IMG/VR virus record: IMGVR_UViG_3300004369_000751
Span: 1-60,202 of that record
DNA length: 60,202 nucleotides
Source of the DNA: a virus
Lineage: Duplodnaviria > Caudoviricetes
Strand: one strand, 5' to 3'
Made by a program: the position numbers and the translations under genes. The notes below the pieces were generated by a model that was not told the DNA's origin, searched no databases, and saw only the letters and a list, made by a program, of their open reading frames with translations. Within the stretch, counting starts at the first letter, position 1; every line of letters begins with the position of its first letter. Positions 12,638 to 59,323 of the stretch are shown in pieces.

Positions 12638-12902
12638 GGAAATAAAGCTCAGGATTATTCAAGCCGGGCATCGGGCCGTAGAGCAACTAATTAAGGTTGC
12701 TGAGGAAGAGATTGTCGGTGGGGATGATGAGCTTTCTGCTGACAAACTAAAGAGTGCAGCTCAAGCCAAGAAGATGGCTATCTTTGATGCATTCGAAATT
12801 CTGTCAAGGATAGAGTCAGAGAAGGAGGTTCTTGAGCAGATGGAAAGGGGTTCAATGAAAACAGATAGTAAGCAAGGTTTTGCAGAGCGAAGGTCAAAAT
12901 AG
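12624..12902 (+). CDS. terS: Probable terminase small subunit
   Basis: Small helical protein directly upstream of terL. Confidence 0.55.
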   Translation: MRSSKEIKLRIIQAGHRAVEQLIKVAEEEIVGGDDELSADKLKSAAQAKKMAIFDAFEILSRIESEKEVLEQMERGSMKTDSKQGFAERRSK

Positions 12903-20987: not shown

Positions 20988-21007
20988 GCGTCTCTTCGAA
21001 GAGACTC
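20988..21007. repeat. 20-bp palindrome copy 2
   Basis: GCGTCTCTTCGAAGAGACTC immediately after the stop codon. Confidence 0.95.
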
Positions 21008-33639: not shown

Positions 33640-33670
33640 TTAATCAAACACAATTTAGTAACTTTGTAGT

Positions 33671-36600
33671 ATGGATGAACAGGTGCTACAGGACCTTTAT
33701 GCAAGGGCCCAATCATTAGGATACAAAAAAGGAATAGAAGACTTTCGTACTCTAATCCAAACAGACCCAAGTGTACAAGACGATAACTTCGCCTACGTAC
33801 AAAGCAGAGGGTACAAGAAAACCAAAGAAGAATTCTTGGGCCTATTGGGGATGAACCAATCCACAAGCACCATCCCATTAAAAAAAAAAGAGTCAGCCCC
33901 AAGTACGGAATCGTTATCGGGCGATGGTTCATTGGGGCAATCTTTGCCGGAGATTACAAAGAAGACTCTCAGTAAAATTGGCATAGAGCCACAGCCACAA
34001 TCAAAGCCAAAAGAAGACCCACTTCGGTTTAACCAAATGCCCCCTCAAATGCAAGTTGAGGAGGCTTTCAAAATCATACAAGGGAAAGGATACCAAGGCA
34101 CAAAGGAAGACTTCATTGCCGAGTATGGAATCCAAGTCCCCCAAACCCAAGAAGAGGAGTACAAGAACAAGGACATCTTTGCTCAGAATATCCGGAATGC
34201 CTACAGCAGTGCACTTCGATACTCTCCTCAAAAGAAGGAGGTGGTTGCTCCGGCCAAGGCTGAGCCAACACTCATGGAGCAAACCAAAGAACAGTTTGCC
34301 GAGCAGTTCCCCAAGACCATAGAGCGAATAAAGAAAGCACCCGAAGAGGCCGAGCGAGATAAGGGATTCTTAGAGACTGTTAAGAAGGGTGAACGTGAGG
34401 CTGAGTTAGCTCAGATTCAGACCAACGACCAAGACGAAGAGTTTTTGCGTTTGGTATCCGGGGTTGACAACCTGTACATAAAAGGAGCTTCAGAGGAGAG
34501 AGCAGAAAGGGAGCTAAACGAAAGATTCAAGAAGTACGGAATAGTGTTTGCCCAATCTAAGGCAGGCCGAGACGTGCTGATTGCTCGCACAGCAGATGGG
34601 AAGAAGAGCATTGAGGTGCCCCTTGCAGCGTCAACTTCTGACTACAACTCAAAAAGACTCAGAGACTTTATCATACAGAACGGAAAGGCTCAGACTGAGT
34701 CCATGTCTGAGGACTTTATTACTAAGTCATTGCGTGCACAGAATATGCGCCGCGTTGGTAGGCTCAACAAGGATGGCAGTGCATCAACTGTAGAGTTTAT
34801 GTCCTTTGAGCAGGACGGCAAGTTCCTTGTGGCTCCAACCCTATTCCCAAAGGACAAGCTCAACTACGGCGCAGACCCGAGAGGATGGATGAAGTTGGAG
34901 CCGGCAAAAGCAATTGAAGAGGCCCGGGCAAGAGGTGAGCTGTTTGAGTTTAAAACCAAGGCCGAGGCAGAACGATTTGCAGAAGGTGCTTGGAAGGATG
35001 TAACCATGTCAGATTTAGAGGGGCAGAAGTTCTTCCAAGAGCGTGGCTTAGACTACTTTGATTACAAGAACAGAAGGGACGAGATGTTGTCTATCGACAA
35101 GGAGCAGGCCCTGATTGAGAATGTGAGTGGTGCCATTAAGAGAGGTGAAATCACAAACGCGAAGCAGTACTTTTCAAAGAAACTTTCACCGGAGGAGGCC
35201 ATCAAGTACTCCTACCTTTTGAATGGTAACAACCTTCGCCCCGACTTGGAGTCATACGTTCAGAAACGTCAGCAACAAAAGAACGAGCTTTATACCCAAG
35301 TGGAGGACCGCACTTTCTTTAACGATGGGAAGGTTCAAACAACATTTGAGGACTTCGATGTTTACCTTAACAAGAAGTCTGAGGAGTCAAAGAAAAAGGC
35401 TGAAGAAGCGAACAAGATAGCAAAGGAGAAGTACGAAGAGCTGAACGCCGTATCAATGGAGGCTTTTGGTGTTCCGGCAGCACAGCTTATGACCTACAAG
35501 CCGAAGACTCAAGATGAGGTGAACGTGATAAACGACATCAAGCAAAGGATGTCAGCCCTTGTTGACCTACAAAAAGTAGCTGCTGAAAGGTACTACGCTT
35601 CATCTACGTTCTTTGATTCCAAGCTAAACAAGGCTGCTCGCAACGAGTACGATGAGAACATGTCCGCTTGGTGGAGCGAGTTTAATTCTGCTTGGGCCCG
35701 AGGTGAGGCCGGGGCACAGTTGATGAAGACAATCATGGGCGTGAACTCTGTTGAAGAGGCAGGTCAGTTGATTTCAGAGGCTATGCAAGATGCAGAGGGT
35801 GGCACTCGTAGCCGAGCTTTCCAAACTTTTATGTCTGCCGGTGCTTTATCTGAAGATGATGAAAGAGCTGCAAGGGCTTTTTGGTCTGACCCATTTGAGA
35901 TATTAACAAACTTAGTGGCTACGAGTTTTGCTCAGCTTCTTCCTATAGGGTTTAGGATTGTGCCTGCTACAACCGTTGCCGGTGGTCTCACAGGTGCCGG
36001 AATTTCTGCCGCAACAACAGGCGGTTTTGGAACTTTCGGAGGTGCAGTTTCAGGGTTAAAGTATGGTTTTCAAACGGGTATGGAAATGGCGAACTTTGCC
36101 ATGGAGTACACCAACTCATTCTTTGAGGCAGCTCAAGAAAGAGGGTATGACGTGAAGGACCCCGAACAGTTTGTCAAGGCTTACGCTGACGATGCAGTTT
36201 GGAATGAGACCAACAACATTGGTATTCGAAGGGGATTGGCTATTGGTGGAGTTGGATTGATGTCGAGCAGTCTTGCCGGCAAGGTGTTTAAGGTTAGCAA
36301 ACTCGCATCCAAGGCTCAGAAGGTAGGAACATTCGTTGCGGAGCGTGCTGTTTTTGACCCCTTAATGGAGGGTGCCGGAGAGCTGTTAGCTCAAGAGTGG
36401 TCTACCGGAACGTATGACCTAAAGGAGATTGAGGGTGAGATGATGGGTGGTATTGGCAACAATGCCATCTCTGCCGGATTTAACATAGCTACATCGGCAT
36501 TAAAGAACACCAACATTGATTATGCGAACACGCTTACTGACATCTCTGCTGTTGCTGAGGAGTCTGCGAGTGATGAGCGCATATCAAATTGGGCTGCGAA

Positions 36601-39600
36601 TATGCGGAGGCTTGGTCAGATTGATGCTGAGACTGAGCAGAGGATTCAGAGGAATGTTGGATTGAGAAGGGAGTCCAAGGACTTGTTGTCTGTTGGTGAC
36701 AATGGAAAGATAGCTTCAAAGGATTCCAAGCTACAAGCAAGGATGATGGAGCTGATGGCTGCACGCGATGAGATGTCATCTACGGACAACCGTCGTGAGG
36801 TGTACCGAAACTACATAGCTCAGGTGAACGAGGAGCTGAGGGAGATTGCAGAGACCAAGAAACTCCGGGCCCCGGAGAATGCTGTGAACCTTTCTACCAT
36901 GAATGCTCCTACGTCAGCACCCGGCATACCTAAGTACAGCATCAATGGTCGCTCTATGACCAAGGCAAACTTTATGGATGCCGTTGGAAAGATGTCGAAG
37001 TCAAGGTTTATGCGTTCTCGCATTGTTGTTGACAATGATGAGGCTACCACCGGTGAGCTGAACCAAAAACTTATAGACAAAGGATTCATAACTAAACCAA
37101 AGACAGATGCCATTCAAGAGCAAAGCGCAGCGCAGGTATCTCCACAAGTTTCAGCCGCAGTTGGCGAAGGAGTGGGAGAGCAAGTACCCGGTCAAGAAGA
37201 AGTTGCCGGAGAAGTTGAACAAGAGCGTCTCCTCGAAGAGACGCAACAGCAAGTAGAGCAAAGTCGTGGTAGGCTGAGTGAGTTAGAGGCTGCTATTCCG
37301 GCGGCTATGGAGGTTACTCCGGAGGTTCTTGTTCAGGCAACCAACAATGAGTTGGCACCCGAGCAGTTGGATGGGGTGTTGTCCTCTATTGCTGACGATA
37401 TCATATCTGAGACTGAGCTAAGTCCTGAGCAGGACGCGTTGGTATCTGCGAACAAGGCCCGGGTTGATGAGTTGGTTTCATTGAAGTCTGAGCAGGAGGC
37501 GTTGAGCTCCGAGGTCAATGACTTGGAAACTATGCTGAGTCAAAGTGGTGGGTTTCAGTTCCGGGCCGGGGATGGTGTTAAAACCACAAGGGATGCAGCT
37601 TGGGATTCTAAGACTAAGGAGGAGCTTCCGGCTTCGAGCTTTGAGAGTGACGAGGCTTTTCAATCTACTATTCGCGATGGTCAGTGGGGTATGCTTACTG
37701 CGGAGAATCCTGATGCAACACAAGTATCTGATGCGGAGAATAAACAAGTAAATGAGCGTGCGGAGGAGTGGTTACGTAGCCGGGGATACAATCCTCAGCG
37801 AATCTTTGGGAAGTATGGCAACTCTGAGAACAGCTTTTTTGTTGAGGGGTTAAGCACAGAGGATGCTGTTGAGTTTGCCCGGGAGTTTTCTCAAGAGAGC
37901 GTAGCTACGGATAAGGGTCTTGTGTATCAAGATGGCAAGATGAATCCAAGGCAGAAGGGTCAAGAGACTTTTGCTCCGGCAGATGATTTTTACAGCACGA
38001 TTAAGATTGGTGACAAGCTGTCTGACTTCTCTGTATCGTATGACTTTGATGAAAAAACAGAGAGCGGAGTTAAGCCTGCTCCAAAGAAAGAAGGGAAAAC
38101 CGCTGTTGAGGGGGAGATTACTTTATATCATTCTACGCCAAGTAATTTTACTGAATTTAGAGTTATTGGGGAGAATGACGGAAAGACAGAATCTCAGTAT
38201 ACAGAACTTGGTATACACTTAGGAACTGAGGAGCAAGCTAAAAAAAGAGCCGAAACAAAGAGAATACCAAAAGAAAAACAAAGAATAATAAAAGTTAAAA
38301 TCAATCCTAAAAAAGTAATAAGAGTTACTGATAAGGGGAGGTGGACTTTATCTACATACAAAAACATACTTTTTGAGTTAGGCTTAATACAAGATAAAAA
38401 AGAAATCAAATCTTTTGAAGATGTTTTAGCGGTTCTAAAAGACAATAATATTGATGCCTTTGTTTACGATAATAAGTATGAAGGTAAAGGGGATTCTTAT
38501 ATTGTTTTTGATAATAAAAATATAGAAATAGAGCAATCCACCGGGGAGAATCCCTTGCAAGATGTGGAGAGTACAACTAAGGCGTTGGAGGGCGTGGATA
38601 CAACCATTATTGAAAAACCTTTTGGTGTAATGTATCATGGTACTGCAAGTCAATTTGATTTACCAAGCAAAAAAGAAATTGGAAAAGGTATAGGAGTATC
38701 AAAATTTGGAGAAGGATTTTACGTAACAACATCTAAAGAATCTGTAGATAAATATTATGGGTTAATAGCAGCCGCAAACTCAGCATTTCAAGATTTATAT
38801 CCTGATTCAGCTTCAATGTCAAACGCAAAAGAAACAAATTCATTTTTTAATCTGCAAATGCTTTATGATGCGTTACTTATTGATGGCACAAAAGAATCTG
38901 CATTAAAATCAGTAAAGAATAATCTTTCAGGGAAAAAAGCTGAAGCTGCTATAAAGTTAATTAACAATACATTTGATAAATTAAAAGTAAAAAAATTCAC
39001 ATTAAATAACGATAATATTGTAGATTTTGACCAACCCATTGCAGGGTCAAAATTTGATAGTGTTATTGATGAAAAGGATAGACCGGAAACATTTGGTGAA
39101 TTATTTGAAGATTTAGTAGAAGGAAACATAATACAAAATTATTTCGGTGAATATAAAAAAGGGTTTGATGAAAAAAGTGCAATAAGAAAAGCAACAAAAA
39201 TTTTAAAAGGTTATGGAATAGATGGGCTATCGTACAATACTAAAAAAGTAATCAATGAAGAATTAAAACTACCATATGATGTAAAAGGGGAAAAAGATTA
39301 CGTTATTTTTAATACCTCTGTTTTAAAACCATTTACCAATAAAAACATCGCCCAAGCCTACCACAAAGCCAAGGCAGACAATTCAAACCCTGAATTAGTA
39401 AAGGCGGTAGAAAGTTTATTTGGTGCTCCAAAGTCCGGGCCTCAGACACGCATTGACACAAAGTTAGAGCAGGTCCAAGAGATTGATGAGAATGCTGAGC
39501 TCGAAAGAATCGTTGGTGAAATGAATGAGTTGGATAGTCCACTCGTAGACACATCTGCCCAAATTGAATCAACAGAAGGTGCTTCAACAGATGTTCAAGA

Positions 39601-42600
39601 ACTAAACAGCAGGCTTGATACCCCACTCGATGTGGTAAACATTCAAATTCTTGATGGGGTACCGGTGCTTGTCACAATCTCAGACCAACTTGTAGCATCC
39701 AATGATGGTGTTACAGACAATGTCACAGGCACAGAGATTACCAACCTTTTCGGTGGCTTAGGATTCAACGGAATTAAAAAGTTCCTTAAGGCAGCTTGGG
39801 CAAATGTAAATGAAGATGAGGCCAAAAATCAGCACAAAAAAGCTACTGAAATATACGAAAACAATAAAGCAATCATTGAAAAGTTTTGGGCAGACAACCC
39901 CAAGTACGATGGGCACGTACCCATGTTGGTTGTAAAAATGGGGGAGAACTCAATACTTTCAAACGAGGCCGTATCAAGAGTGCTTATTGAAAGGATTAAG
40001 TCTTTAAATCTTTCAGAAGATACAAAGAAAGAAGCATTTTCAAATTTGCAAAAGAGGTTAGACAAATTTGTAGAAAACTACAAAAAAGAAAAGGCGGCTG
40101 TAGATAGAAAAAATGCAAAATTAAAAGAAGGTGAAAAGAAAAAAGCAATAAGTGCAAGCACAAAGAACCCTTATTCTTTAGCTAAGTTCATTAGTGAAAA
40201 TAACATAAAGGATTTTGATGGTGTTTTAAATAGCATAGCTCAAATGCCTATTTCTGCAAGAGGGGTTATTAATAAACTATTAACATCAGGTTCAGTTAGA
40301 AAGCCCGGGCAAAAGCCAAAAAACCCCGGGGGGCCCGGTAAAGATAGTATAGCAAAGATACTTCTTGGAGACAACAAAAATAATTCTTTACTGAGCATAC
40401 AATCTATAACTGATGTATTAACAGAGCCATCGACATCTAATGTTCCAATTGGAAGTGTTATATCTGTGGTGGGTGTTAAGGTTGCAGAGAAGCAAGCCGA
40501 TGGAACATATAAAGCGGCCGGTCGTGCCATAAAAGTTGGCCATCCAAACTATGAGTATGGAGCCGAGGGAATGTCTTTTGGTGTTGTAAAAAACCCTATG
40601 ACACTCCAAAGCATAATGCCTGCCGCATATGATGCTGTAGTATCAAAAAACATTGAGAAGGTAAAAGAAAAAAAGAAACCTATTGGTACTTCAACAGCCA
40701 TGGGTATTGGCCAAGGATTGAAGGGCTTAGTAGGAAGAACCATCAGCACCAACCCTCCCAAGATGATGGCCTTGATATCACTTATCAATAAGGCTTTCCC
40801 AAATGTTTCAGTGTACACCACAACAGAAGCATTCAACCGGATACTTCAAAACACCGACACAAAGTTGACGATGAAAGGAGACGCAGTTCTCTATGGAGTC
40901 ACAGCCAACGGTGATATCTACATCAACCCCGAGGTACACAAAACAGAGTCTGAGCTGTTCAACACAATCATCCACGAGTTCGGGCACGTTTGGCTTAATA
41001 TGCTTTTGACTTCTCCTGAAGGAAGCAAAGAGAGAAAGCTGTACCAACAAGGGATAAACATCATAAGAGAAGGAATCAAGACCGACCCGAAATTAAAGGC
41101 TCTCTACGATAGTCAGATGAAGTTGTTCAACAACAACGAAGCTGATGCCATCAACGAGATGTTGGCAATCTTGATTGGTAACCGGGGAGAGATGATATCA
41201 AAGGCGAGCATCAGAACCAAGTTCAATGACTTCTTGCTTGCGATGTGGGAGTACGTCCGCGCTACATTCAAGATGTCCAAGGACATTAGCGTAGATGAAA
41301 TCTCTAACATGAGCCTTGATGATTTCTTGGGCACAGCCATGGCAGACCTACTCAGTGGCGAGGATATGAAGATATCCGATGCTCAGCTCACAAAGATGAG
41401 GAACCTAACCTCTATGGCTCGCCAAGATGACTCAATGCAGAGCATCATTGACTTGGGCCGGGAGAACGGATTCTCAGACCAATCCATCAAAGAGATTCTA
41501 ATGCGTCGTGGCTTTAAAGCTGCCGACATCGATACGGCCATGGAGGTCCGCGTAGACCTAATGACCGAACTACCCGATGCGTTTGCCAACGTAGAAGGTG
41601 GCGTGAAGGAAGGTATGAAGCTATTCGCTGACGTGCGCCAACAGCTCAGCAAGTATGCCAAGAAGAAGGTGAAGGAGGCCGATGGCACCACTCGTACTCG
41701 GACCATGTCAGAGATACGTCAGAAAGCCTTAGAGCTTCTCAAGGAGCACCCAATATTCAAGGCCCAAGCAAACATAACGAAAGATGAACTCATCTTGGCT
41801 TTCGATAGGTCAATGTCAACCCGGGCGAACAGAGGTGTCGATGCTCAGATTGCAGAGATAAGGAAGGGCCTGAAATCAAAGAAGATGGGCGTGAAGGAGT
41901 TGGCTGCTGCTCAGAAGAAACTCATTGACTTTGTATCAAGCGTGCTCCCTCAATCTAAGGGATATAGCACAGCAAGGATTGAGCGTATAGTTCGATTGAT
42001 TGGAAGCACAAACATAAACAACTTCGATGCTCAAGCCGAGCGCGTGATGAAGATTGTTGAGGCTCAGAAGGATTTGATGGCCAAGAAAGATATTGCTGAC
42101 GCTGTTGCAAGACAAAGGCAAGAGATGCGCGACCGCCGGGCCGGACAAAAAGACCTTCGTTCTTTTCAGATTACACTGAAGAACTTCATCAGAACCAATC
42201 TGCCAAAGTCCAAAGGCTATAGCCAACTTATGGTGAACCGATTGGTTGCTGCTGTAGCAAACACCACAACACAAAATTACGCAGCACAAGCTGTAAAGGT
42301 TCTGAATGTAGTTGAAAAGCAGCGCAAACTGATGTCCAACCAAAGGATAAGGGAGATTGCAAATGTGATAGTCAAGTCATCTAAGATAGCCAAGACCGGC
42401 TCAAACAAACGTAGGGCCGGCCGGGTGGATGCAGACACTCAGGCTTTGTTTGCAACAATGAAGCAGACCATGAGGGCATTGGCAATGGCTAAGAAGGGTG
42501 ACTCATCTATGCTTGACAGGATTTCAGCATCTGTTGACCCTGCGATATTGGCCGGCAAGGGCATTGACCTTGATGAAGTACAACAGAAAATAGACAACGG

Positions 42601-45085
42601 AGAGGAGCTCACCGCGGCAGAACGCGATGCGTTCAACACAACTGTCGCACTCCAAGAGTTGGGCGGTATCTTCTCTATGTCTCTTGAGGAGTTGGACTCT
42701 CTATTGGAGAGAACAAAGGAGATGGCAACAGAGGGAATCGCACGACTAAAGGCAGACAAACTTGTCTTGAGTGCTGAGATATCTTCATTGAAGCAGCAGG
42801 CAGAGGCTCAGATAAAATCTGACTTTGGATTCTTGTACGATGAGAACGGAGACCTGAAGAGTAAGAACAGGCTTGACTCTGAGTTCCGGCAGATATGGGA
42901 GAACTTCCGCAAGCTAAAGGTTTGGGAAGGTATCAAGGGTTGGGTTAAGACAATCGACTTCCAATCTCTCACCGGATTCCAAGACTTTATGCGGAAGAAA
43001 ATATACCACCTTGGTACGCTGATGAACGTGTTGGACAAGGGTGGTGACTTCTTCAAGAAGAACGTATACGACGTTCTCAATAGAATGGATGAGAAGAGTA
43101 AGCGCGGATTCCAAATGGAGATGGCGAACTTAGACTCTTTCGCACGTTCTTTTGGATTCAAGAACTACAAGCAGTTTGCTCGTAGCTTGAACGGACCTCC
43201 GGCTAATGTCAACGGAAAGCTACTCACCATCGACCAAATGATGAGAATCTATGCCCTAAGCAAGAACCCAATACAGAGGAACAAGCTGATTGATATGGGC
43301 ATTGACATCGACAGTGTTGAGTCATTCCTTACAGATGAGCAAAGGGGATTCGCTGACATGGTTGTTGACTACCTATCCAACAGCTACTTCGATGGCGTTA
43401 ACAGCATCTACTCTTATGTAAACAATGTCAACCTTGGATACGTAGAAAACTACTTCCCAACCAAGACAATTCAAACTAAGATTGATGGGAACATCTTGGA
43501 GTCCGGAGACTTCGGCTCTGTGTTTAATGCGGAGACAGCACCTGCACTAAAGGAGCGTACTGATACTAAGGGAGAGATTGACTTGTCATCAGACTTTACT
43601 GCTGTTCTTGAGAATCACTTCCGGTCGATGGAAAGGTACAAGGCCATGGCCATTGGTGTTCGCAAGATGGTTCAGATTTTTAAGATGGAGGATGTCAAGA
43701 CTTTGCTTGAGCGCACCGGAACCAAGGACATGATTATGCGCGGTCTTAACTTCGCTATCAACCCCGACTCCATGACCCGGGAACCAACGACCATTGTCGG
43801 GAAGCTGTCATCCAAGTTCACCGGATTTGCTCTTTCTTTCAAGGCCATTCAAATTCTGAAGCAAGGCTCCTCTTTTGTTCAAGCATTTGAGGATTACACC
43901 GTAAGGAAGGGCAAGCCAACACCGGTATTGGACCACATAATGTTCATGCTTGACATGGCTTACATTGTTGCCACACTTCCAAAGCAGATTAAAAAGGCTT
44001 ACGATATGTCGGCCAATGTAAAGGACCGTCTCGACCAAGGATTGGAGGGGGATGTGTATGGACTTGAGTCCGGCACCGGAGTGTTCCGGCCAATATCAAA
44101 GTCATCAAGTGCATGGGCAAAAGCAAGGAGGGCTTTCAAAACCGGAGCCGCAGCACCTACTGTCCTTGGTGATATCATTGGTGTGCTTGGATACATGGCT
44201 GTGTACAACAGAATGATAAAGCAAGGCTTCACTCACGCTGAGGCGTTGGAGGCATTCAACAACTACAACTCTACGCAGCAGTCTCGCCGGGCAACTGAGA
44301 AGTCACCAATACAGATGAGCAACAATGAGTTTCAAAGGTTGTTCACAATGTTTGGAAGCACAGTGTTCTTGCAGATGAACAAGATTGCTCAGACATCAAC
44401 CAACATCATGCGTAGTGCCAAGAAAGGCAAGATGCCAAAAGCAAAGGATGTACGAGGGTTAATGTTGAACCTTGCCATCGCAAACGTGTTGTTCGTTGGT
44501 GCTGCTAACATTGCCAAGTTTATATACGGTGATGATGAGGATGAGGAAGAGGCTTTGAAAGCCATGCGTAATGCGATGCTTGGTCTCAATGTGATTTACG
44601 CTATACCCATCTTTGGTTCTGCTATTGAATCAATGGTTGCGTATGCTGAGGGTGAGCCTGACAGGGCTGATGACACCATCAATGTGTTTCAGAATCTATT
44701 CAGAAAGTATAAGAAAGCTGAAGAGGGATTGGATGATGGTAATGTTTGGGCTGCGGTACAGCCTTTAGTTGAGATTGTTATTGGAGCTCAGCTCGACCCA
44801 TTCATTGGTATCTACAACTACTTTGGCGGAGACGAGGATATGCAAGAGGATGCGGCTTACGATATGCTTGGAATCACTCCATCGTACAGGCCAAGCAATG
44901 ATGAGAAGCCTGTATCAACTATGGGCAAGGAGGACATGAAGCGTTACTTCCCTGAACTTTACGATGAGGTATACGGACCAAACTCCCCGGGGTATGACAT
45001 TCAGCAAGAGATAAAGGAGATGGAGAAAGAGATTGAGAAGGAGCAGCAACAGTTAAAGGATGAAGCCTACGGCTACTCTGAGTAG
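33671..45085 (+). CDS. Giant (3804 aa) polyvalent ejected protein with DUF3293-like, two ART-PolyVal-like and zincin (HEFGH) domains
   Basis: WGMLTAENP...GKYGNSENSFFV; LYHST...GIHLGT...DAFVY.N..EG..SYIVFD; MYHGT...FGEGFYVT...IDGLSY...YVIFN; IIHEFGH...INEMLA. Confidence 0.85.
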   Translation: MDEQVLQDLYARAQSLGYKKGIEDFRTLIQTDPSVQDDNFAYVQSRGYKKTKEEFLGLLGMNQSTSTIPLKKKESAPSTESLSGDGSLGQSLPEITKKTLSKIGIEPQPQSKPKEDPLRFNQMPPQMQVEEAFKIIQGKGYQGTKEDFIAEYGIQVPQTQEEEYKNKDIFAQNIRNAYSSALRYSPQKKEVVAPAKAEPTLMEQTKEQFAEQFPKTIERIKKAPEEAERDKGFLETVKKGEREAELAQIQTNDQDEEFLRLVSGVDNLYIKGASEERAERELNERFKKYGIVFAQSKAGRDVLIARTADGKKSIEVPLAASTSDYNSKRLRDFIIQNGKAQTESMSEDFITKSLRAQNMRRVGRLNKDGSASTVEFMSFEQDGKFLVAPTLFPKDKLNYGADPRGWMKLEPAKAIEEARARGELFEFKTKAEAERFAEGAWKDVTMSDLEGQKFFQERGLDYFDYKNRRDEMLSIDKEQALIENVSGAIKRGEITNAKQYFSKKLSPEEAIKYSYLLNGNNLRPDLESYVQKRQQQKNELYTQVEDRTFFNDGKVQTTFEDFDVYLNKKSEESKKKAEEANKIAKEKYEELNAVSMEAFGVPAAQLMTYKPKTQDEVNVINDIKQRMSALVDLQKVAAERYYASSTFFDSKLNKAARNEYDENMSAWWSEFNSAWARGEAGAQLMKTIMGVNSVEEAGQLISEAMQDAEGGTRSRAFQTFMSAGALSEDDERAARAFWSDPFEILTNLVATSFAQLLPIGFRIVPATTVAGGLTGAGISAATTGGFGTFGGAVSGLKYGFQTGMEMANFAMEYTNSFFEAAQERGYDVKDPEQFVKAYADDAVWNETNNIGIRRGLAIGGVGLMSSSLAGKVFKVSKLASKAQKVGTFVAERAVFDPLMEGAGELLAQEWSTGTYDLKEIEGEMMGGIGNNAISAGFNIATSALKNTNIDYANTLTDISAVAEESASDERISNWAANMRRLGQIDAETEQRIQRNVGLRRESKDLLSVGDNGKIASKDSKLQARMMELMAARDEMSSTDNRREVYRNYIAQVNEELREIAETKKLRAPENAVNLSTMNAPTSAPGIPKYSINGRSMTKANFMDAVGKMSKSRFMRSRIVVDNDEATTGELNQKLIDKGFITKPKTDAIQEQSAAQVSPQVSAAVGEGVGEQVPGQEEVAGEVEQERLLEETQQQVEQSRGRLSELEAAIPAAMEVTPEVLVQATNNELAPEQLDGVLSSIADDIISETELSPEQDALVSANKARVDELVSLKSEQEALSSEVNDLETMLSQSGGFQFRAGDGVKTTRDAAWDSKTKEELPASSFESDEAFQSTIRDGQWGMLTAENPDATQVSDAENKQVNERAEEWLRSRGYNPQRIFGKYGNSENSFFVEGLSTEDAVEFAREFSQESVATDKGLVYQDGKMNPRQKGQETFAPADDFYSTIKIGDKLSDFSVSYDFDEKTESGVKPAPKKEGKTAVEGEITLYHSTPSNFTEFRVIGENDGKTESQYTELGIHLGTEEQAKKRAETKRIPKEKQRIIKVKINPKKVIRVTDKGRWTLSTYKNILFELGLIQDKKEIKSFEDVLAVLKDNNIDAFVYDNKYEGKGDSYIVFDNKNIEIEQSTGENPLQDVESTTKALEGVDTTIIEKPFGVMYHGTASQFDLPSKKEIGKGIGVSKFGEGFYVTTSKESVDKYYGLIAAANSAFQDLYPDSASMSNAKETNSFFNLQMLYDALLIDGTKESALKSVKNNLSGKKAEAAIKLINNTFDKLKVKKFTLNNDNIVDFDQPIAGSKFDSVIDEKDRPETFGELFEDLVEGNIIQNYFGEYKKGFDEKSAIRKATKILKGYGIDGLSYNTKKVINEELKLPYDVKGEKDYVIFNTSVLKPFTNKNIAQAYHKAKADNSNPELVKAVESLFGAPKSGPQTRIDTKLEQVQEIDENAELERIVGEMNELDSPLVDTSAQIESTEGASTDVQELNSRLDTPLDVVNIQILDGVPVLVTISDQLVASNDGVTDNVTGTEITNLFGGLGFNGIKKFLKAAWANVNEDEAKNQHKKATEIYENNKAIIEKFWADNPKYDGHVPMLVVKMGENSILSNEAVSRVLIERIKSLNLSEDTKKEAFSNLQKRLDKFVENYKKEKAAVDRKNAKLKEGEKKKAISASTKNPYSLAKFISENNIKDFDGVLNSIAQMPISARGVINKLLTSGSVRKPGQKPKNPGGPGKDSIAKILLGDNKNNSLLSIQSITDVLTEPSTSNVPIGSVISVVGVKVAEKQADGTYKAAGRAIKVGHPNYEYGAEGMSFGVVKNPMTLQSIMPAAYDAVVSKNIEKVKEKKKPIGTSTAMGIGQGLKGLVGRTISTNPPKMMALISLINKAFPNVSVYTTTEAFNRILQNTDTKLTMKGDAVLYGVTANGDIYINPEVHKTESELFNTIIHEFGHVWLNMLLTSPEGSKERKLYQQGINIIREGIKTDPKLKALYDSQMKLFNNNEADAINEMLAILIGNRGEMISKASIRTKFNDFLLAMWEYVRATFKMSKDISVDEISNMSLDDFLGTAMADLLSGEDMKISDAQLTKMRNLTSMARQDDSMQSIIDLGRENGFSDQSIKEILMRRGFKAADIDTAMEVRVDLMTELPDAFANVEGGVKEGMKLFADVRQQLSKYAKKKVKEADGTTRTRTMSEIRQKALELLKEHPIFKAQANITKDELILAFDRSMSTRANRGVDAQIAEIRKGLKSKKMGVKELAAAQKKLIDFVSSVLPQSKGYSTARIERIVRLIGSTNINNFDAQAERVMKIVEAQKDLMAKKDIADAVARQRQEMRDRRAGQKDLRSFQITLKNFIRTNLPKSKGYSQLMVNRLVAAVANTTTQNYAAQAVKVLNVVEKQRKLMSNQRIREIANVIVKSSKIAKTGSNKRRAGRVDADTQALFATMKQTMRALAMAKKGDSSMLDRISASVDPAILAGKGIDLDEVQQKIDNGEELTAAERDAFNTTVALQELGGIFSMSLEELDSLLERTKEMATEGIARLKADKLVLSAEISSLKQQAEAQIKSDFGFLYDENGDLKSKNRLDSEFRQIWENFRKLKVWEGIKGWVKTIDFQSLTGFQDFMRKKIYHLGTLMNVLDKGGDFFKKNVYDVLNRMDEKSKRGFQMEMANLDSFARSFGFKNYKQFARSLNGPPANVNGKLLTIDQMMRIYALSKNPIQRNKLIDMGIDIDSVESFLTDEQRGFADMVVDYLSNSYFDGVNSIYSYVNNVNLGYVENYFPTKTIQTKIDGNILESGDFGSVFNAETAPALKERTDTKGEIDLSSDFTAVLENHFRSMERYKAMAIGVRKMVQIFKMEDVKTLLERTGTKDMIMRGLNFAINPDSMTREPTTIVGKLSSKFTGFALSFKAIQILKQGSSFVQAFEDYTVRKGKPTPVLDHIMFMLDMAYIVATLPKQIKKAYDMSANVKDRLDQGLEGDVYGLESGTGVFRPISKSSSAWAKARRAFKTGAAAPTVLGDIIGVLGYMAVYNRMIKQGFTHAEALEAFNNYNSTQQSRRATEKSPIQMSNNEFQRLFTMFGSTVFLQMNKIAQTSTNIMRSAKKGKMPKAKDVRGLMLNLAIANVLFVGAANIAKFIYGDDEDEEEALKAMRNAMLGLNVIYAIPIFGSAIESMVAYAEGEPDRADDTINVFQNLFRKYKKAEEGLDDGNVWAAVQPLVEIVIGAQLDPFIGIYNYFGGDEDMQEDAAYDMLGITPSYRPSNDEKPVSTMGKEDMKRYFPELYDEVYGPNSPGYDIQQEIKEMEKEIEKEQQQLKDEAYGYSE
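33883..33938 (+). promoter_or_regulatory. Candidate -1 programmed frameshift signal
   Basis: In-frame A_AAA_AAA, 6-nt spacer, stem GCCCCAA/TTGGGGC. Confidence 0.5.
37107..37256 (+). CDS. Nested 49-aa basic protein in the +1 frame of the giant gene
   Basis: MPFKSKAQRRYLHKFQPQLAKEWESKYPVKKKLPEKLNKSVSSKRRNSK with an A-rich TIR. Confidence 0.65.
   Translation: MPFKSKAQRRYLHKFQPQLAKEWESKYPVKKKLPEKLNKSVSSKRRNSK
37225..37244. repeat. 20-bp palindrome copy 3 (in doubly coding sequence)
   Basis: GCGTCTCCTCGAAGAGACGC. Confidence 0.9.
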
Positions 45086-46681: not shown

Positions 46682-48145
46682 TTAAAGTGTTAAATGTTTC
46701 TTAAAATGAGAAATTGTGTAGTCTTTTTTCTTGCTTACAGCCTTGTAGATTTCATCTTCAATGCCATCCTCAGAAAAAATCCAATAGATGTCGCTCTCCA
46801 ATCTGTCCTTCGTTGTCATCCGGTCTCGGCTCTGCCAATAACTCGTGGCACTGAAGTCAATGTTGAAGTAAACTAAAGCGTCAGCCTGCCTCAAGGATAT
46901 GCCCTCCCTTCCACTTACAATCTGAAGGGCTATCGACTTTTGCGTCTCTTCGAAGAGACTCAAATCTGTGGTAAGCTCATCGCCAAACACCTGAGTCAAA
47001 GCACTCAGCTCCTCCTTGAACTTGTAGAAGATGCCAATCTTCTTGCCGGCAAAGTGATTCTTTATGAACTCCGCTTTGCTTAGGTCAAAGGTCATAGACT
47101 TTCCGCTCTCAAACTTTACCGTTCCGGAGTACATCTGATGTAACTTTTGCATCAACTTCACCGGTGTGTCAGCCAAGATTACCTCATCCTTACCTTGAAG
47201 AACCAATTCCTTCTTAAGCCTTTCAATCATAGCATAAGTCGAGTCCTTCATCCTAACCCTCAGAATGTGCTCCTTTGTTTGCACAACAAAGCCTGCTTGC
47301 TTCTGACTATAGTTGATGGTGTATGGCTCCATTGCCTTTATGATTTCCTCCTTTCCTCGGCTGTAGTCTTTTATCATCACAGAGTTTATCATCTTGGTCT
47401 TCACATCAATGTACGCGTCAGCAAAACGATAGAATGATTTGAAAGAAGAGAATGGGTTGCCGGGGATTCCGTACACCTGATGGTACATCTGAGAGTACGA
47501 CTCCGGTGTTGGTGTTCCGCTCAGGAGAATCACCCGAGGTCTGTGCTTTGCAATCAAATCGCGCACGTCCTTAGCTCTGTTGCTTGGCTTGGGGAAAGCA
47601 CCAAGGCTGTGTGCCTCATCGCAGATGATGACATCCCAACTCTTCTGTTCAACCTTGTGAAGACTCTCGTAGTTGATGGTATCCATGTGGAACTCAGGAG
47701 ACAGCGTAGCGTAGTCACTCTCAATGCTGCCGATTGCTTTCTTCTTGGTTATAAACAGAACAGACTTAGCACCAATCTTCCGGCAGATGCCGAGACTTGT
47801 GAGAGTCTTGCCGGTTCTCACCTCCATGGCCAAGTACAAGAAGTCATGCTCAAAGAGAATCTGAGCACCCTTCTCAATGATGCTTAGCTGATAGTCTCTG
47901 TACTCAAATGAATTCTGTTTCATCTCGGGTAGGTTTTGATAGTGTTCAATGCTTGCACGTATTGATTCAATTGTATGTGTAGGCACGTCATGCTTGAGAG
48001 CCACGACCTCAACCATCTTCCGGCCTTGCTTGACCTTCTTTGTTTTGGTTTTGGTCGCGACACCAAGCAGTAGCCGGAGCAGCTCCACCATCATCATGTT
48101 GCTGTATCCGGGCCTCCTCTCTATTATCTTAATCTCGTTCATCAC
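46682..48145 (-). CDS. SF2 (SNF2-like) helicase
   Basis: YRDYQ, EVRTGKT, DEAH, LSGTP, SGREGISL, QSRDR. Confidence 0.9.
   Translation of the reverse strand: MMNEIKIIERRPGYSNMMMVELLRLLLGVATKTKTKKVKQGRKMVEVVALKHDVPTHTIESIRASIEHYQNLPEMKQNSFEYRDYQLSIIEKGAQILFEHDFLYLAMEVRTGKTLTSLGICRKIGAKSVLFITKKKAIGSIESDYATLSPEFHMDTINYESLHKVEQKSWDVIICDEAHSLGAFPKPSNRAKDVRDLIAKHRPRVILLSGTPTPESYSQMYHQVYGIPGNPFSSFKSFYRFADAYIDVKTKMINSVMIKDYSRGKEEIIKAMEPYTINYSQKQAGFVVQTKEHILRVRMKDSTYAMIERLKKELVLQGKDEVILADTPVKLMQKLHQMYSGTVKFESGKSMTFDLSKAEFIKNHFAGKKIGIFYKFKEELSALTQVFGDELTTDLSLFEETQKSIALQIVSGREGISLRQADALVYFNIDFSATSYWQSRDRMTTKDRLESDIYWIFSEDGIEDEIYKAVSKKKDYTISHFKKHLTL
46942..46961. repeat. 20-bp palindrome copy 4 (inside the helicase gene)
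   Basis: GCGTCTCTTCGAAGAGACTC, read as LSLFEETQ on the minus strand. Confidence 0.95.
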
Positions 48146-51123: not shown

Positions 51124-51143
51124 GCGTCTCCTCCAAGAGACTC
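51124..51143. repeat. 20-bp palindrome copy 5
   Basis: GCGTCTCCTCCAAGAGACTC directly after the exonuclease stop codon. Confidence 0.9.
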
Positions 51144-51887: not shown

Positions 51888-52519
51888 GACAATAGCTCCT
51901 TAATTTTGTTTGCAACCGCAGGAGCAATGGTGTACTTCCGCTTCAACTGAGCCACAATCTTATCGTATCCCAACTCCTTGTTGGCATTGACGTAGGACAC
52001 AACTCGCTCCCAATTCTCTGTGCCGGTCTTCAGTGACTCAAGGGCAGCAGTGCCACCTGTTGGGTTTGATTGCACATTCGCAGAGGGACGTGGGTTGCCC
52101 ATGGTCGGGGCAGCAGCCGGCTCACCGGGGATGTCCTCTCCGCTCCATAGTTGGATGCCGAGTCCATGCATGGCAATTGCCTTGGCTGTTGAACGCTGAA
52201 TGGATTTGTTTACATCCGTTGCAGTAATCTTCTCAACAGGTATTGGATTGTTGCGGTAGTCCATGATTGGAAGGTAGTCGATGTGCTCAATGCCATCAAC
52301 GGATATTCCAACCTTTACGTATCCTGTTCTGCCATCGGTGAAGAAGTTGAGCCCTGTCGCAGGGTCTTCATACACGTTCCGATTTGCGCTCGGATAGTTT
52401 GACTTTAGCATAGACCATGCCCATGCCCATGAGAGGTAGTCCAAGCCACCTTTGTTCTCGATTTTGTCCCTGAAAGGAACGCTGCTTAAGGTCTCGAAGA
52501 CCGATTTGGTTGTTGCCAT
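51884..52519 (-). CDS. sak: Sak / DUF1071 Rad52-like single-strand annealing protein
   Basis: LDYLSWAWAW...LPIMDYRN...DVNKSIQRSTAKAIAMHGLGIQL. Confidence 0.85.
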   Translation of the reverse strand: MATTKSVFETLSSVPFRDKIENKGGLDYLSWAWAWSMLKSNYPSANRNVYEDPATGLNFFTDGRTGYVKVGISVDGIEHIDYLPIMDYRNNPIPVEKITATDVNKSIQRSTAKAIAMHGLGIQLWSGEDIPGEPAAAPTMGNPRPSANVQSNPTGGTAALESLKTGTENWERVVSYVNANKELGYDKIVAQLKRKYTIAPAVANKIKELLS

Positions 52520-52529
52520 ATGAATGGAT

Positions 52530-52829
52530 TTAAATGGTTACTGAATTGATTACGTCATCTAAGAAATAGCGGAACTCTTTTTGGTGTGATGACTTTGCCA
52601 CCTTGTTGATTCCATGGATGATTGTTGTGTGAGCCATGTCAATCCCTGCGTACTGAAGTAGCATTGTCTTGATGTCGCACACTCGAATCCCTTTCCTTTT
52701 ACACAGATAGAAGATTGTTTGTCGGGCATCTGACGCGTACCTGCTCCTGCTGTTGACTAACTCGTCTTGGCTGAGTTCGTACATCTCTTTGACGCGCTCA
52801 ACGATTGATTTAAAAACCTTTGAGTTCAT
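52530..52829 (-). CDS. DnaA C-terminal-like HTH protein
   Basis: SRSRYASDARQTIFYLC...HTTIIHGINKV; -7 TATCTTTG at 52879-52886 (minus). Confidence 0.75.
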   Translation of the reverse strand: MNSKVFKSIVERVKEMYELSQDELVNSRSRYASDARQTIFYLCKRKGIRVCDIKTMLLQYAGIDMAHTTIIHGINKVAKSSHQKEFRYFLDDVINSVTI

Positions 52830-54547: not shown

Positions 54548-55030
54548 CTATAGATGAGATTTTACCTTCATCCAATATGATTCAGTAGATGCCTTAGACA
54601 TTCCATTGGGCCCTCCGTTCCAACACCGAGCAATTGACTCGTAGTCCAAGTCCTTGTGGTGCTTCTCCACAATCACCATCAGCATATCCACAGACTTGTC
54701 GCAGTCCCACCTGTCATTCATGGTGTATACTTCAGAACCCAATAGTCTGTTGACCTCCCTGACCATGATTGGTCTTATCTGCAAACATCCAACTGCATCC
54801 TCCCTTCTATTGTATGCACATTCGTTGCCCCTACTCTCAACCTGAATCATGCCTGCAATCAATGTGTTAAGAGAATCAACAATCAATCTCGTTTCTGAAT
54901 CAGCAATCATTGTAGAGTCTCTTCGAAGAGACTCTGTTTTGATTGGTTCATGCATTGGATTGTTAGGAATCACAACGAATCCAAAATAGCTGCCAATAAT
55001 TCCGGCAATGATAAAAGAGATTGTCTTCAT
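54548..55030 (-). CDS. Membrane-anchored lysozyme-like / lytic transglycosylase (i-type lysozyme-like)
   Basis: N-terminal hydrophobic segment; IQVES.G...AVGCLQI...ARCWNGGP; contains palindrome copy 6 at 54915-54934. Confidence 0.75.
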   Translation of the reverse strand: MKTISFIIAGIIGSYFGFVVIPNNPMHEPIKTESLRRDSTMIADSETRLIVDSLNTLIAGMIQVESRGNECAYNRREDAVGCLQIRPIMVREVNRLLGSEVYTMNDRWDCDKSVDMLMVIVEKHHKDLDYESIARCWNGGPNGMSKASTESYWMKVKSHL

Positions 55031-56520: not shown

Positions 56521-56605
56521 TTAGTGTGGCTTTCGGACTCGAACCGAAGGAAGAGTCTCTTCGAAGAGACGCAAATTGCTGCTAATCATTCCGACCATCA
56601 ACCAC
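56521..56605 (-). ncRNA. tRNA-like element B containing palindrome copy 7 (56553-56572)
   Basis: GTGGTT/AGCCAC stem, T arm TTCGG-TTCGAGT-CCGAA, 3' ACTAA. Confidence 0.7.
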
Positions 56606-58064: not shown

Positions 58065-58134
58065 GTTAGCTGTGGCATCGGAATCGAACCGACCTTGCGT
58101 CTCTTCGAAGAGACTCTCAATCACCATGGCCACA
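58065..58134 (-). ncRNA. tRNA-like element C containing palindrome copy 8 (58097-58116)
   Basis: TGTGGC/GCCACA stem, T arm GTCGG-TTCGATT-CCGAT, 3' GCTAAC. Confidence 0.75.
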
Positions 58135-58961: not shown

Positions 58962-59030
58962 GTTAGCAGCAGCATCGGACTCGAACCGATTTATCGTCTC
59001 TTCGAAGAGACTCTAAGAACCTTCACTGCT
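58962..59030 (-). ncRNA. tRNA-like element D containing palindrome copy 9 (58994-59013)
   Basis: AGCAGT/GCTGCT stem, T arm ATCGG-TTCGAGT-CCGAT, 3' GCTAAC. Confidence 0.75.
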
Positions 59031-59303: not shown

Positions 59304-59323
59304 GAGTCTCCGCGAAGAGACTC
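59304..59323. repeat. Palindrome copy 11
   Basis: GAGTCTCCGCGAAGAGACTC, intergenic. Confidence 0.9.

What the first reader, a model, noticed from the sequence alone, without database searches (positions are those of the whole stretch)
37107..37256. Overprinted gene nested in the +1 frame of the 3804-aa gene
Seen: ATG 37107, preceded by an A-rich Bacteroidota-style TIR (ATAACTAAACCAAAGACAG), opens 49 codons: MPFKSKAQRRYLHKFQPQLAKEWESKYPVKKKLPEKLNKSVSSKRRNSK. From memory this matches a widespread family of small stand-alone phage proteins (MPFKSKAQRR...P..AK.WE..TP..KLPE), and it is K-rich like the 5-7 kb cluster. The main frame here is a low-complexity acidic linker (DAIQEQSAAQVSPQV...), as expected for an overprinted region. 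A palindrome copy also lies within it, so the stretch carries three layers of information.
Basis: partly seen in the sequence, partly recalled or inferred. Interest (0 to 1): 0.75.

Follow-up and report, generated by a model that had tools for sequence, protein, structure and literature searches.

The report
Small phage gene nested in giant gene
A conserved 49-codon gene for a small basic protein lies entirely inside a giant phage structural gene, read one base out of step, and genome annotations miss this arrangement, which recurs in many other phages.

Summary
Confirmed. ORF 37107-37256 (+, 49 aa) lies in the +1 frame of the 3804-codon ORF 33671-45085 of a complete 60.2-kb phage genome.

- **Family membership.** The peptide belongs to a large uncurated family of small basic phage proteins. 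The family profile scores it E 4.5e-24, and 4117 representative clusters match at E<=1e-3.
- **Conservation.** All 9 other records checked that carry the homologous giant gene keep the nested gene at the same place and frame, down to about 31-39% host-protein identity. One is a cultured Flavobacterium phage.
- **Selection.** Over the overlap, substitutions follow the small frame's codon periodicity. The host's third positions, the most variable class in the flanks (0.59-0.65 differences per site), drop to 0.29.
- **Control.** None of seven other long +1 ORFs in the giant gene reaches all the distant relatives.
- **Recurrence.** Of 80 viral loci with a family member, 16 are nested in giant frames, 19 in 300-999-codon frames (17 scaffold-like, 2 doubtful), 35 are free-standing and 10 are N-terminal fusions. 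All nested copies sit in the same relative frame, in host genes with no detectable homology.
- **Start signals.** Shine-Dalgarno-like motifs in 14 of 14 loci of the higher-GC host groups, and A-rich leaders in the window's own group and the other low-GC groups.

Translation has not been shown directly, and function is unknown. My guess is a late, virion-associated nucleic-acid-binding peptide.

The parts
37107..37256 (+). Nested gene: 49-aa small basic protein (MPFKSKAQRRYLHKFQPQLAKEWESKYPVKKKLPEKLNKSVSSKRRNSK), in the +1 frame of the giant gene
   Evidence: ORF and translation. Family profile E 4.5e-24. 63 homologues at E<=0.01. Conserved at the same place in the 7 other distinct loci and in two GenBank records. 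Small-frame codon periodicity.
37087..37106 (+). A-rich, G-poor leader before the nested ATG, lying inside the giant ORF. Presumed Shine-Dalgarno-independent (Bacteroidota-type) translation initiation region.
   Evidence: Sequence. 55% A and 10% G, matched by 4 of 262 internal ATGs. The other genes of the window have the same kind of leader and no Shine-Dalgarno motif, and all 8 sequences of the window group have A-rich leaders. No stable RNA structure (z 0.24).
33671..45085 (+). Host gene: 3804-aa giant protein at the end of the virion gene block. It has DUF3293 at aa 1342-1411, an HExxH motif (IIHEFGHVW) and a hydrophobic C-terminal region.
   Evidence: The homologue in Flavobacterium phage vB_FspP_elemoE_6-9C is annotated 'structural protein; DUF3293'.
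37106..37255 (+). Segment of the giant protein encoded over the nested gene (DAIQEQSAAQ...QQQV): an acidic low-complexity linker between a conserved N-terminal module and variable downstream modules
   Evidence: Homology of distant relatives to the N-terminal module, with differing downstream parts.
37225..37244 (.). 20-nt near-palindrome GCGTCTCCTCGAAGAGACGC inside the 3' part of the nested gene; one copy of a family dispersed through the genome
   Evidence: 19 strand matches at 12 sites, 0 expected. Not conserved in L005 and altered in L004.

Best explanation
37107-37256 is a genuine protein-coding gene nested in the +1 frame of the giant virion-module gene.

**Shown here**
- Its product belongs to a very large, uncurated family of 37-60-aa basic phage proteins. 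The family has an invariant MPFKS..QR start, two short predicted helices, a (K)LPE motif and a Lys-rich tail.
- The gene is kept at the same place and frame in every relative of the giant gene that was found.
- Purifying selection over the overlap follows the small frame.

**Inferred**
- Ribosomes start independently at the internal ATG on the late mRNA that also encodes the giant protein. They would use the A-rich, unstructured, Shine-Dalgarno-free leader typical of this Bacteroidota-type phage. In the higher-GC host-gene groups the same position carries a GGAG-type motif instead.
- The giant protein reads the same DNA as a tolerant acidic linker.
- The small frame is the older one. Large virion genes (giant multidomain proteins, scaffold-like proteins) have extended across it, or acquired it with its linker. 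Only the frame that turns Lys codons into Glu/Gln codons is found.

**Function (low confidence, about 0.3)**
A late-made, virion-associated small basic peptide that binds nucleic acid or an acidic assembly partner. Longer homologues use the same module as an N-terminal domain.
For: **Homology**
- 63 of 509 candidates reach E<=0.01 in a 5.8-billion-protein search.
- All 13 invariant columns of a 31-sequence alignment are present in the window peptide.
- The profile finds 4117 representative clusters at E<=1e-3 and 710 at E<=1e-10.
- It is the only hit in its own genome, at E 4.5e-24.

**Free-standing members prove the small frame is coding**
- Annotated CDSs exist in MW574966.1 and in Streptomyces phage Vorvolakos.
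- 35 of 80 viral loci have no long spanning frame on the same strand.

**Conservation**
- The nested ORF (42-54 aa) is present in the window and in 7 other distinct loci. It is always +1 of a stop-free frame of 1289 to 3807 codons.
- It is also present, unannotated, in GenBank MW202828.1 and in the cultured Flavobacterium phage NC_055854.1 gp18.

**Selection**
- Per-site pairwise differences over the overlap, at host codon positions 1/2/3, are 0.374/0.300/0.294. The flanks give 0.396/0.272/0.587, 0.399/0.341/0.606 and 0.545/0.452/0.653.
- In the small frame, positions 1/2/3 give 0.325/0.233/0.427.
- The same switch of periodicity appears in all four host-gene groups tested.

**Control**
- Of the 8 longest +1 ATG ORFs in the giant gene, only this one is found in all 8 relatives searched, the six distant ones included. 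Six of the others are seen only in the 75-90% relatives and one also in a single distant relative, several with stops.

**Start signals**
- The leader is A-rich in all 8 members of the window group.
- A GGAG/GAGG/AGGA/AAGG motif lies at -7 to -14 in 14 of 14 loci of host groups B, C and the three singles. It occurs in 0 of 17 low-GC nested loci.
- Phe-3 is TTC in 30 of 30 nested copies that have Phe; TTT would create a host-frame TAA. TTT occurs in 12 of 21 free-standing copies.
- In four relatives a stop codon in the small frame sits directly before the ATG.

**Natural populations**
- Contigs from 4 runs show no indel or stop in the ORF.
- The two changes in the conserved core (37127, 37157) are silent in the small frame and change the host frame.
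Against: - There is no direct evidence of translation. The one RNA-library run holds only fragments at 90-99% likeness, and such libraries can contain DNA.
- The window peptide does not reach any Pfam, PHROG or NCBIfam model. Other family members reach only phrog_1375, 'unknown function'.
- No structural or solved-structure relative was found, so the proposed function rests on composition and gene context alone.
- The pairwise difference counts use related sequences and are not independent. Some groups are small (5-6 sequences).
- Constraint on the host linker may add to the conservation: the motif DA[IV]Q[EK]Q is also conserved.
- One natural variant in the basic tail (37243 G>T) changes the small protein and is silent in the host frame.
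- Gene contexts of free-standing members are mixed. They lie after tail-fibre, terminase and giant genes and before a ribonucleotide reductase gene. This does not point to one function.
Confidence: 0.88

Rival explanations
1. Engulfed relic. The small ORF descends from a once free-standing gene but is no longer translated. It persists only because the giant protein needs this linker sequence.
For: - Both frames are conserved at the start of the overlap: DAIQ[EK]Q in the host frame.
- Translation was not shown.
- One tail variant is silent in the host frame only.
Against: - A constrained host linker would keep third positions the most variable class. Here they are the least variable, and the periodicity is that of the small frame, in four host groups.
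- ATG, stop and family-invariant residues are kept at 31-39% host identity.
- The embedded start signals fit the GC class of each phage group: Shine-Dalgarno-like motifs in the higher-GC groups and A-rich leaders in the low-GC groups.
- The host residues over the overlap are low-complexity and poorly conserved outside the part mirrored from the small protein's core.
Confidence: 0.06
2. Trans-frame product. Ribosomes translating the giant gene shift +1 near 37107 and make the N-terminal ~1145-aa module with the basic peptide as a C-terminal tail. There would be no independent initiation.
For: - The small frame lies at the boundary between a conserved N-terminal module and variable downstream modules.
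- Longer homologues show that the module can be part of larger proteins.
Against: - In the small frame a stop lies 0-12 codons before the ATG. In L010-L013 it is directly adjacent.
- In the longer proteins the module is N-terminal, not C-terminal.
- The first codon is ATG in all nested copies found, and free-standing members start at the same Met.
- No conserved slippery sequence is visible across the groups.
Confidence: 0.03
3. Chance ORF. An open +1 frame in a purine-rich linker that merely resembles basic peptides.
For: - Seven +1 ORFs of at least 49 aa occur in the giant gene.
- K-rich frames arise easily opposite E/Q-rich frames.
Against: - Profile E-value of 4.5e-24.
- All 13 invariant family columns match.
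- The ORF is conserved in all relatives, unlike the control ORFs.
Confidence: 0.01

Closest known systems
Uncurated 'MPFKSKAQ' family of small basic phage proteins (nearest curated model: phrog_1375, function unknown)
   Same: - Same length class, N-terminal motif, helix-helix core, (K)LPE motif and Lys-rich tail.
- The window peptide matches all 13 invariant columns and the family profile.
   Different: - Here the gene is nested inside a giant gene, whereas many members are free-standing.
- The window peptide itself does not reach phrog_1375, though other members do at E 1.5e-7 to 3.4e-3.
- No function is recorded for any member seen.
Embedded gene pair Rz/Rz1 (spanins) of phage lambda (recalled from general knowledge; no call)
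   Same: A small phage gene with its own start lies wholly inside a larger gene in the +1 frame, and both products are made.
   Different: - Rz1 is, as far as I recall, functionally tied to Rz and specific to that pair.
- Here the nested gene is an independent, widespread family that also occurs free-standing and as an N-terminal domain.
- It is nested in host genes with no detectable homology to each other.
Classical overprinting in small viruses (review PMC8227390; only the search listing and the start of the abstract were seen)
   Same: One DNA stretch encodes two proteins in different frames. One of the two is low-complexity or disordered.
   Different: - In classical overprinting the nested frame is the young one.
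- Here the nested frame is the widely conserved, strongly constrained one, and the enclosing frame is the low-complexity passenger.
- The genome is a 60-kb tailed phage, so it is not under the size pressure of small viruses.
Polyvalent proteins of phages and conjugative elements (Iyer et al. 2017, PMC5512222; passages read with find)
   Same: - The host gene is a giant phage protein with several modules and an HExxH motif.
- Its downstream modules differ between relatives.
- The paper names zincin-like metallopeptidases as the commonest domain of such proteins.
   Different: - The HExxH region was not tested against a zincin profile here.
- Only DUF3293 was recognised.
- The passages found in the paper do not mention 'overlapping' (0 occurrences), and DUF3293 is not mentioned.
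gp18 'structural protein; DUF3293' of Flavobacterium phage vB_FspP_elemoE_6-9C (NC_055854.1)
   Same: - A giant (11,085-nt) last gene of the virion block.
- It carries an unannotated nested family member, MPFKSKAQMKACYSQDNPKWDCKKWSKETPSKKSLPNKVKKK, in the +1 frame.
- The terminase is 49% identical to the window's.
   Different: - The stretch before the nested gene was not detected as homologous by tblastn at E<1e-5.
- The small protein is of a different subtype, with Cys residues.

Membership tests
MPFKSKAQ small basic phage protein family (uncurated) | Significant match to a profile built from family members | tested here: met
   - The profile of A2 scores E 4.5e-24 over positions 1-46 of 47 in the window's genome.
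- phmmer finds 63 homologues at E<=0.01.
- The window peptide is itself the first row of A2. The independent support is and the pairwise identities of 41-64% to the free-standing members.
MPFKSKAQ small basic phage protein family (uncurated) | Invariant residues M1 P2 F3 K4 S5 A7 Q8 R9 A20 K32 L33 P34 E35 | tested here: met
   All 13 are present in the window peptide.
MPFKSKAQ small basic phage protein family (uncurated) | Size of about 37-60 aa with a Lys/Arg-rich C-terminal tail | tested here: met
   49 aa with the tail KLNKSVSSKRRNSK. Members seen are 37-80 aa.
MPFKSKAQ small basic phage protein family (uncurated) | Two short helices followed by a disordered tail | tested here: inconclusive
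   The AlphaFold2 model with 31 sequences has mean pLDDT 76, helices at 6-15 and 17-26, and tail pLDDT of 55-68. No experimental structure of any member exists to compare with.
phrog_1375 (unknown function) | Match to the PHROG profile | tested here: not met
   The window peptide gives 0 families at E<=10. Eight other family members or fusions match at E 1.5e-7 to 3.4e-3. The link is therefore indirect.
Embedded (out-of-frame) overlapping gene pair | The small ORF lies wholly within a larger ORF on the same strand in another frame | tested here: met
Embedded (out-of-frame) overlapping gene pair | Both frames are kept open and under selection across relatives | tested here: met
   - The host frame is stop-free through the overlap in the window and the 7 other loci, and in 2 GenBank records.
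- Small-frame periodicity and suppressed host third-position change were shown.
Embedded (out-of-frame) overlapping gene pair | Both products are made | not testable with these tools
   Only contigs of one RNA-library run were available, and they do not show transcription or translation.
Polyvalent protein (host gene) | Giant multidomain protein of a phage with a zincin-like metallopeptidase and shuffled effector domains | tested here: inconclusive
   - 3804 aa, with an HExxH motif seen in the translation.
- Downstream modules differ among relatives.
- Pfam recognises only DUF3293. PHROGs, NCBIfam and PDB sequences give nothing.
Programmed +1 ribosomal frameshift site | A conserved shift-prone sequence, with the shifted frame open upstream of the shared part | tested here: not met
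   A stop lies directly before the ATG in the small frame in L010-L013 and within 0-12 codons elsewhere. No shared slippery motif is visible.

The most novel reading that the evidence does not exclude
The MPFKSKAQ gene is an ancient micro-gene that large virion genes have swallowed, or that has moved into them, several times independently. The host genes have no detectable homology to one another: three types of giant multidomain protein and a scaffold-like protein. The only frame ever found is the one that converts its Lys-rich reading into an acidic linker.

In this reading the basic peptide and the acidic linker co-encoded on the same DNA work together. The peptide might, for example, neutralise or chaperone the giant protein or the scaffold during packaging. 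The overlap would then be a built-in stoichiometric and evolutionary coupling, not just compaction.
Probability: 0.12. Interest if true: 0.9.

Novelty: new variant of a known kind. Interest (0 to 1): 0.72.

Why it matters
- **Annotation gap.** A protein family with thousands of sequence clusters is systematically missed when it is nested. The two GenBank records checked (MW202828.1, NC_055854.1) annotate only the giant gene. Gene callers that forbid embedded genes will undercount it.
- **Direction of overprinting.** It is a clear example in a tailed phage where the embedded frame is the conserved one and the enclosing frame is the passenger. This reverses the usual picture of overprinting. It also suggests how giant multidomain phage proteins grow: by reading through small neighbouring genes.
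- **Testability.** The same small gene is nested, always in the same relative frame, in non-homologous virion genes. A cultured carrier exists (elemo phages on Flavobacterium sp. BAL314). Both its translation in a Shine-Dalgarno-less host and its function can therefore be tested directly.

Tried and rejected
- **Curated libraries.** Pfam, PHROGs and NCBIfam gave nothing usable for the peptide. The only hit was DUF2573 at E 0.054, below cutoff.
- **ESM Atlas.** It returned only unnamed viral clusters. A DUF3008 lead at score 0.84 is below the tool's own reliability mark and was not pursued.
- **Structure searches.** Foldseek of the AF2 model against the PDB gave no match at E<=0.001. Profile and sequence searches of PDB chains found nothing for the family or for the giant protein.
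- **DNA search.** blastn of 36000-38500 against GenBank phages found no match.
- **Metagenome scan.** It returned only the contig already held as L004.
- **Split version of a giant host gene.** I looked for one with the small gene free between the halves and found none among 35 free-standing or fusion loci. The only link was L037 to L044. It shows that the 'nested' status of L037/L038 is doubtful, because the downstream gene probably starts after the small gene.
- **Remote homology between host types.** Profile-profile comparison of the 400 residues upstream in host types A, B and C gave probabilities of 0.06-0.16%.
- **Complex prediction.** The small protein with the giant protein's linker segment (residues 196-335 of alignment A1) gave no verdict.
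- **RNA evidence.** One metatranscriptome run holds fragments only. Contigs cannot show a start or translation.
- **RNA fold around the start.** Not different from shuffles.
- **Tree of the 40-residue cores.** Too few columns to count engulfment events; it is used only as a hint.
- **Literature.** No paper was found for the motif string, for DUF5661, for polyvalent protein plus overlapping gene, or for embedded gene plus scaffolding protein. The Baltic Flavobacterium phage paper PMC7077304 does not mention the elemo phages in the passages searched.
Full report
**1. The observation**

The window is a complete 60,202-bp virus record with direct terminal repeats. It encodes:
- terminase (12880-15129);
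- portal (15126-17561);
- capsid-type and other virion proteins;
- a GroEL-like protein;
- replication genes on the minus strand.

Its terminase is 77% identical to that of the metagenomic podovirus MW202828.1. It is 49% identical to that of Flavobacterium phage vB_FspP_elemoE_6-9C and 45% identical to that of Maribacter phage Panino. Its genes lack Shine-Dalgarno motifs and have A/T-rich leaders. A Bacteroidota host is therefore likely.

The ORF 37107-37256 exists exactly as described: 49 codons, starting on the second base of a codon of the 3804-codon ORF 33671-45085. Length alone means little, because seven ATG-started +1 ORFs of at least 49 aa lie in the giant gene.

**2. It belongs to a real, large protein family**

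The curated libraries do not recognise the peptide. A search of 5.8 billion proteins, however, returned 63 homologues at E<=0.01. All are 37-80 aa and share the consensus MPFKSKAQRRxMYAxxPxLAKEFExKTPKGKKLPEKVxKK. The window peptide has all 13 invariant residues.

A profile of 31 members finds 4117 representative clusters at E<=1e-3 and 710 at E<=1e-10. In many of these the module forms the N-terminus of proteins of 100-540 aa.

Annotated free-standing genes exist in GenBank phages, for example a 39-aa CDS in MW574966.1 and gp48 of Streptomyces phage Vorvolakos. The small frame is therefore a coding frame in its own right.

The only curated neighbour is phrog_1375 (function unknown). Other members reach it; the window peptide does not.

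AlphaFold2 predicts two short helices (6-15 and 17-26) and a disordered basic tail, with mean pLDDT 76. No structural or solved-structure relative was found.

**3. Conservation of the nested arrangement**

Scans of viral contigs gave seven distinct relatives of the giant gene. Two are close (90% and 75% protein identity next to the site). Five are distant, at 39-48% over the best segment and 32-40% over the N-terminal module by tblastn.

All carry a family member of 42-54 aa at the same place. It is always +1 of a stop-free frame that runs on for 1289 to more than 3000 codons. In four of them a stop in the small frame sits directly before the ATG.

Two GenBank records add to this.
- MW202828.1 (31% identity in the preceding stretch) has a nested 43-aa member at 10724-10855 of locus L094. 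It lies inside a CDS annotated 'reticulocyte binding/rhoptry protein'.
- The cultured Flavobacterium phage NC_055854.1 has a 42-aa member at 52512-52640, in the +1 frame of gp18. That CDS is annotated 'structural protein; DUF3293'.

Neither record annotates the small gene.

As a control, I searched for the eight longest +1 ORFs of the giant gene in eight relatives. Only the 37107 ORF was found in all eight, including the six distant ones. Six of the other seven appeared only in the two close relatives and one also in a single distant relative, several with stops.

**4. Selection**

In this overlap the host's third codon position is the small frame's second position, and the host's first position is the small frame's third. 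The table gives pairwise differences per site across the eight sequences.

| Region | Host position 1 | Host position 2 | Host position 3 |
|---|---|---|---|
| Overlap | 0.374 | 0.300 | 0.294 |
| 250 codons immediately upstream | 0.396 | 0.272 | 0.587 |
| Codons -500 to -250 upstream | 0.399 | 0.341 | 0.606 |
| 130 codons downstream | 0.545 | 0.452 | 0.653 |

Read in the small frame, the overlap shows the ordinary coding pattern of 0.325/0.233/0.427 for positions 1/2/3.

Synonymous sites of the giant gene are thus about twofold suppressed, and the periodicity switches to the nested frame. The comparisons are between related sequences and are not independent. The effect nevertheless repeats in the close trio, in the distant five, and in three further host-gene groups.

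Contigs from four public runs show no indel or stop in the ORF. The two variants in the conserved core are silent in the small frame and change the host frame. One variant pair changes both frames. One tail variant is silent only in the host frame.

**5. How it is probably expressed**

The 20 nt before the ATG are 55% A and 10% G, and only 4 of 262 internal ATGs of the giant gene match that A content. All eight relatives of the window group have similar A-rich leaders, as do the phage's ordinary genes. The local RNA is no more structured than shuffled sequence.

In the nested copies of the higher-GC host-gene groups, a GGAG-type motif lies 7-14 nt upstream in 14 of 14 cases. In 17 low-GC nested copies there is none. 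So the embedded start signal fits the GC class of each phage group.

This points to independent internal initiation on the late mRNA. That is an inference, not a demonstration.

A frameshift product is unlikely. There are small-frame stops just before the ATG, the start Met is universal, and the module is N-terminal in the longer proteins.

**6. The arrangement recurs in unrelated host genes**

Of these, 349 encode a relative, and the best 80 were examined. They fall into four classes.

| Arrangement | Loci (of 80) |
|---|---|
| Nested in stop-free frames of at least 1000 codons | 16 |
| Nested in frames of 300-999 codons | 19 |
| No long spanning frame on the same strand | 35 |
| N-terminus of a longer protein | 10 |

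All 35 nested cases use the same relative frame.

Of the 19 in mid-sized frames, 17 lie in the acidic N-terminal part of a ~400-420-aa protein encoded between portal and major capsid genes. That is the position of a scaffolding protein. Its N-terminus upstream of the small gene is conserved as protein, and it is related to structural proteins of Flavobacterium, Cellulophaga and Maribacter phages. The other two (L037/L038) are doubtful, because a homologue of their downstream gene starts after the small gene.

The giant hosts fall into at least three groups plus two single loci by BLASTP. They show no profile-profile similarity in the 400 residues upstream, with hhalign probabilities of 0.06-0.16%.

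Nested copies always use TTC for Phe-3 (30 of 30); TTT would make a host-frame TAA. Free-standing copies use TTT in 12 of 21.

In free-standing copies the host-type frame is usually closed. The exclusive use of that frame is therefore not a by-product of composition. It fits either selection for the frame that reads Lys codons as Glu/Gln, or spread of the gene together with its linker.

A tree of the 40-residue cores places the small proteins of homologous giant genes in at least four separately supported positions. That hints at exchange of the nested gene between lineages, but 40 columns are too few to rely on.

**7. What it does**

The function is unknown. These are the clues:
- the peptide is very basic, with two helices and a Lys-rich tail;
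- it is the phage's only copy of the family;
- it is nested in late virion-module genes;
- free-standing copies often lie in structural or late regions, though not always;
- the module is an N-terminal domain of diverse proteins, some with DUF5661, glycine-zipper or P-loop parts.

My best guess, at about 0.3, is a late-made, virion-associated peptide that binds nucleic acid or an acidic assembly partner.

**8. The palindrome**

GCGTCTCCTCGAAGAGACGC (37225-37244) belongs to a family with 12 sites in the window, where shuffles give none. By comparison with the ORF list, most sites lie between genes or at gene ends. At this site the closest relative has two central changes and the 75%-identity relative has no palindrome. 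A third functional layer here is not supported beyond the window's own lineage.

**9. Known or new**

Embedded genes in phages are a known kind; Rz/Rz1 is recalled from general knowledge, and overprinting reviews appeared in the listing. I found no paper on this family or this arrangement:
- motif string: 0 papers;
- DUF5661: 0 papers;
- polyvalent protein plus overlapping gene, and embedded gene plus scaffolding protein: nothing relevant;
- the polyvalent-protein paper: no occurrence of 'overlapping'.

Supplementary files and non-open papers were not searched.

I rate this a new variant of a known kind. A conserved, widespread micro-gene is repeatedly found inside non-homologous virion genes, and the enclosing frame is the passenger.

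Noticed in passing
window 6732-6751, 20988-21007, 37225-37244, 46942-46961, 51124-51143, 54915-54934, 56553-56572, 58097-58116, 58994-59013, 59304-59323, 59943-59962: A 20-nt palindrome family (consensus near G[AC]GTCTCTTCGAAGAGAC[TG]C) gives 19 strand matches at up to 3 mismatches, against 0 in shuffles. Most copies sit between ORFs or at ORF ends and cluster in the minus-strand early/replication region. It could be a terminator hairpin or an operator.
   Followed up: partly
window 5181-7175: A run of small Lys-rich basic proteins of 69-131 aa. Two neighbours (5707-6000 and 6003-6338) share the start MA[KR]MKTGRKSGGPGDGK, so they look like paralogues. None matches the MPFKSKAQ profile.
   Followed up: partly
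GenBank MW202828.1 (L094 10724-10855) and NC_055854.1 (52512-52640; L102 8513-8641): Both records annotate only the giant CDS, and the nested small gene is missing. The giant CDS of MW202828.1 carries the name 'reticulocyte binding/rhoptry protein', which is almost certainly a low-complexity artefact.
   Followed up: yes
L023, L081, L082 (small gene at 3001): The family member is free-standing but starts within about 10 nt after the stop of a long ORF (946-991 codons or more; phrog_32588 for the two that were scanned). It is the last gene before the strand switches. The end of the L023 ORF resembles the C-terminus of the window's giant protein (47% over 49 aa). The small gene thus accompanies giant genes even when it is not nested.
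   Followed up: partly
window 33648-33670 and upstream of 9382, 17604, 21439: Motifs such as TAACTTTG or TTTG lie just upstream of several starts, including the giant gene. They resemble the Bacteroidota -7 promoter element as I recall it. This was not tested statistically.
   Followed up: no
window 33671-45085, protein residue ~2560: The giant protein contains IIHEFGHVW (an HExxH motif) and a hydrophobic C-terminal stretch. The stretch gives a weak T4SS_pilin hit at E 0.0056, below cutoff. Otherwise only DUF3293 is recognised.
   Followed up: partly
tree of small-protein cores (window, L004-L102): Small proteins nested in homologous giant genes are not one group. The window/L004/L005 type clusters with a copy from a non-homologous giant gene (L014), apart from the L009-L013/L094/L102 type. 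This suggests exchange of the nested gene, but the tree has only 40 columns.
   Followed up: partly
window 1385-3031: The phage encodes a GroEL-type chaperonin (phrog_5725, E 3e-133). The seawater phage MW574966.1, which carries a free-standing family member, has a co-chaperonin GroES gene nearby.
   Followed up: no
window 36000-38500 in public runs: Near-identical sequence occurs in aquatic and freshwater metagenome runs of 12 coded studies. Five runs hold at least half of the sampled words.
   Followed up: partly
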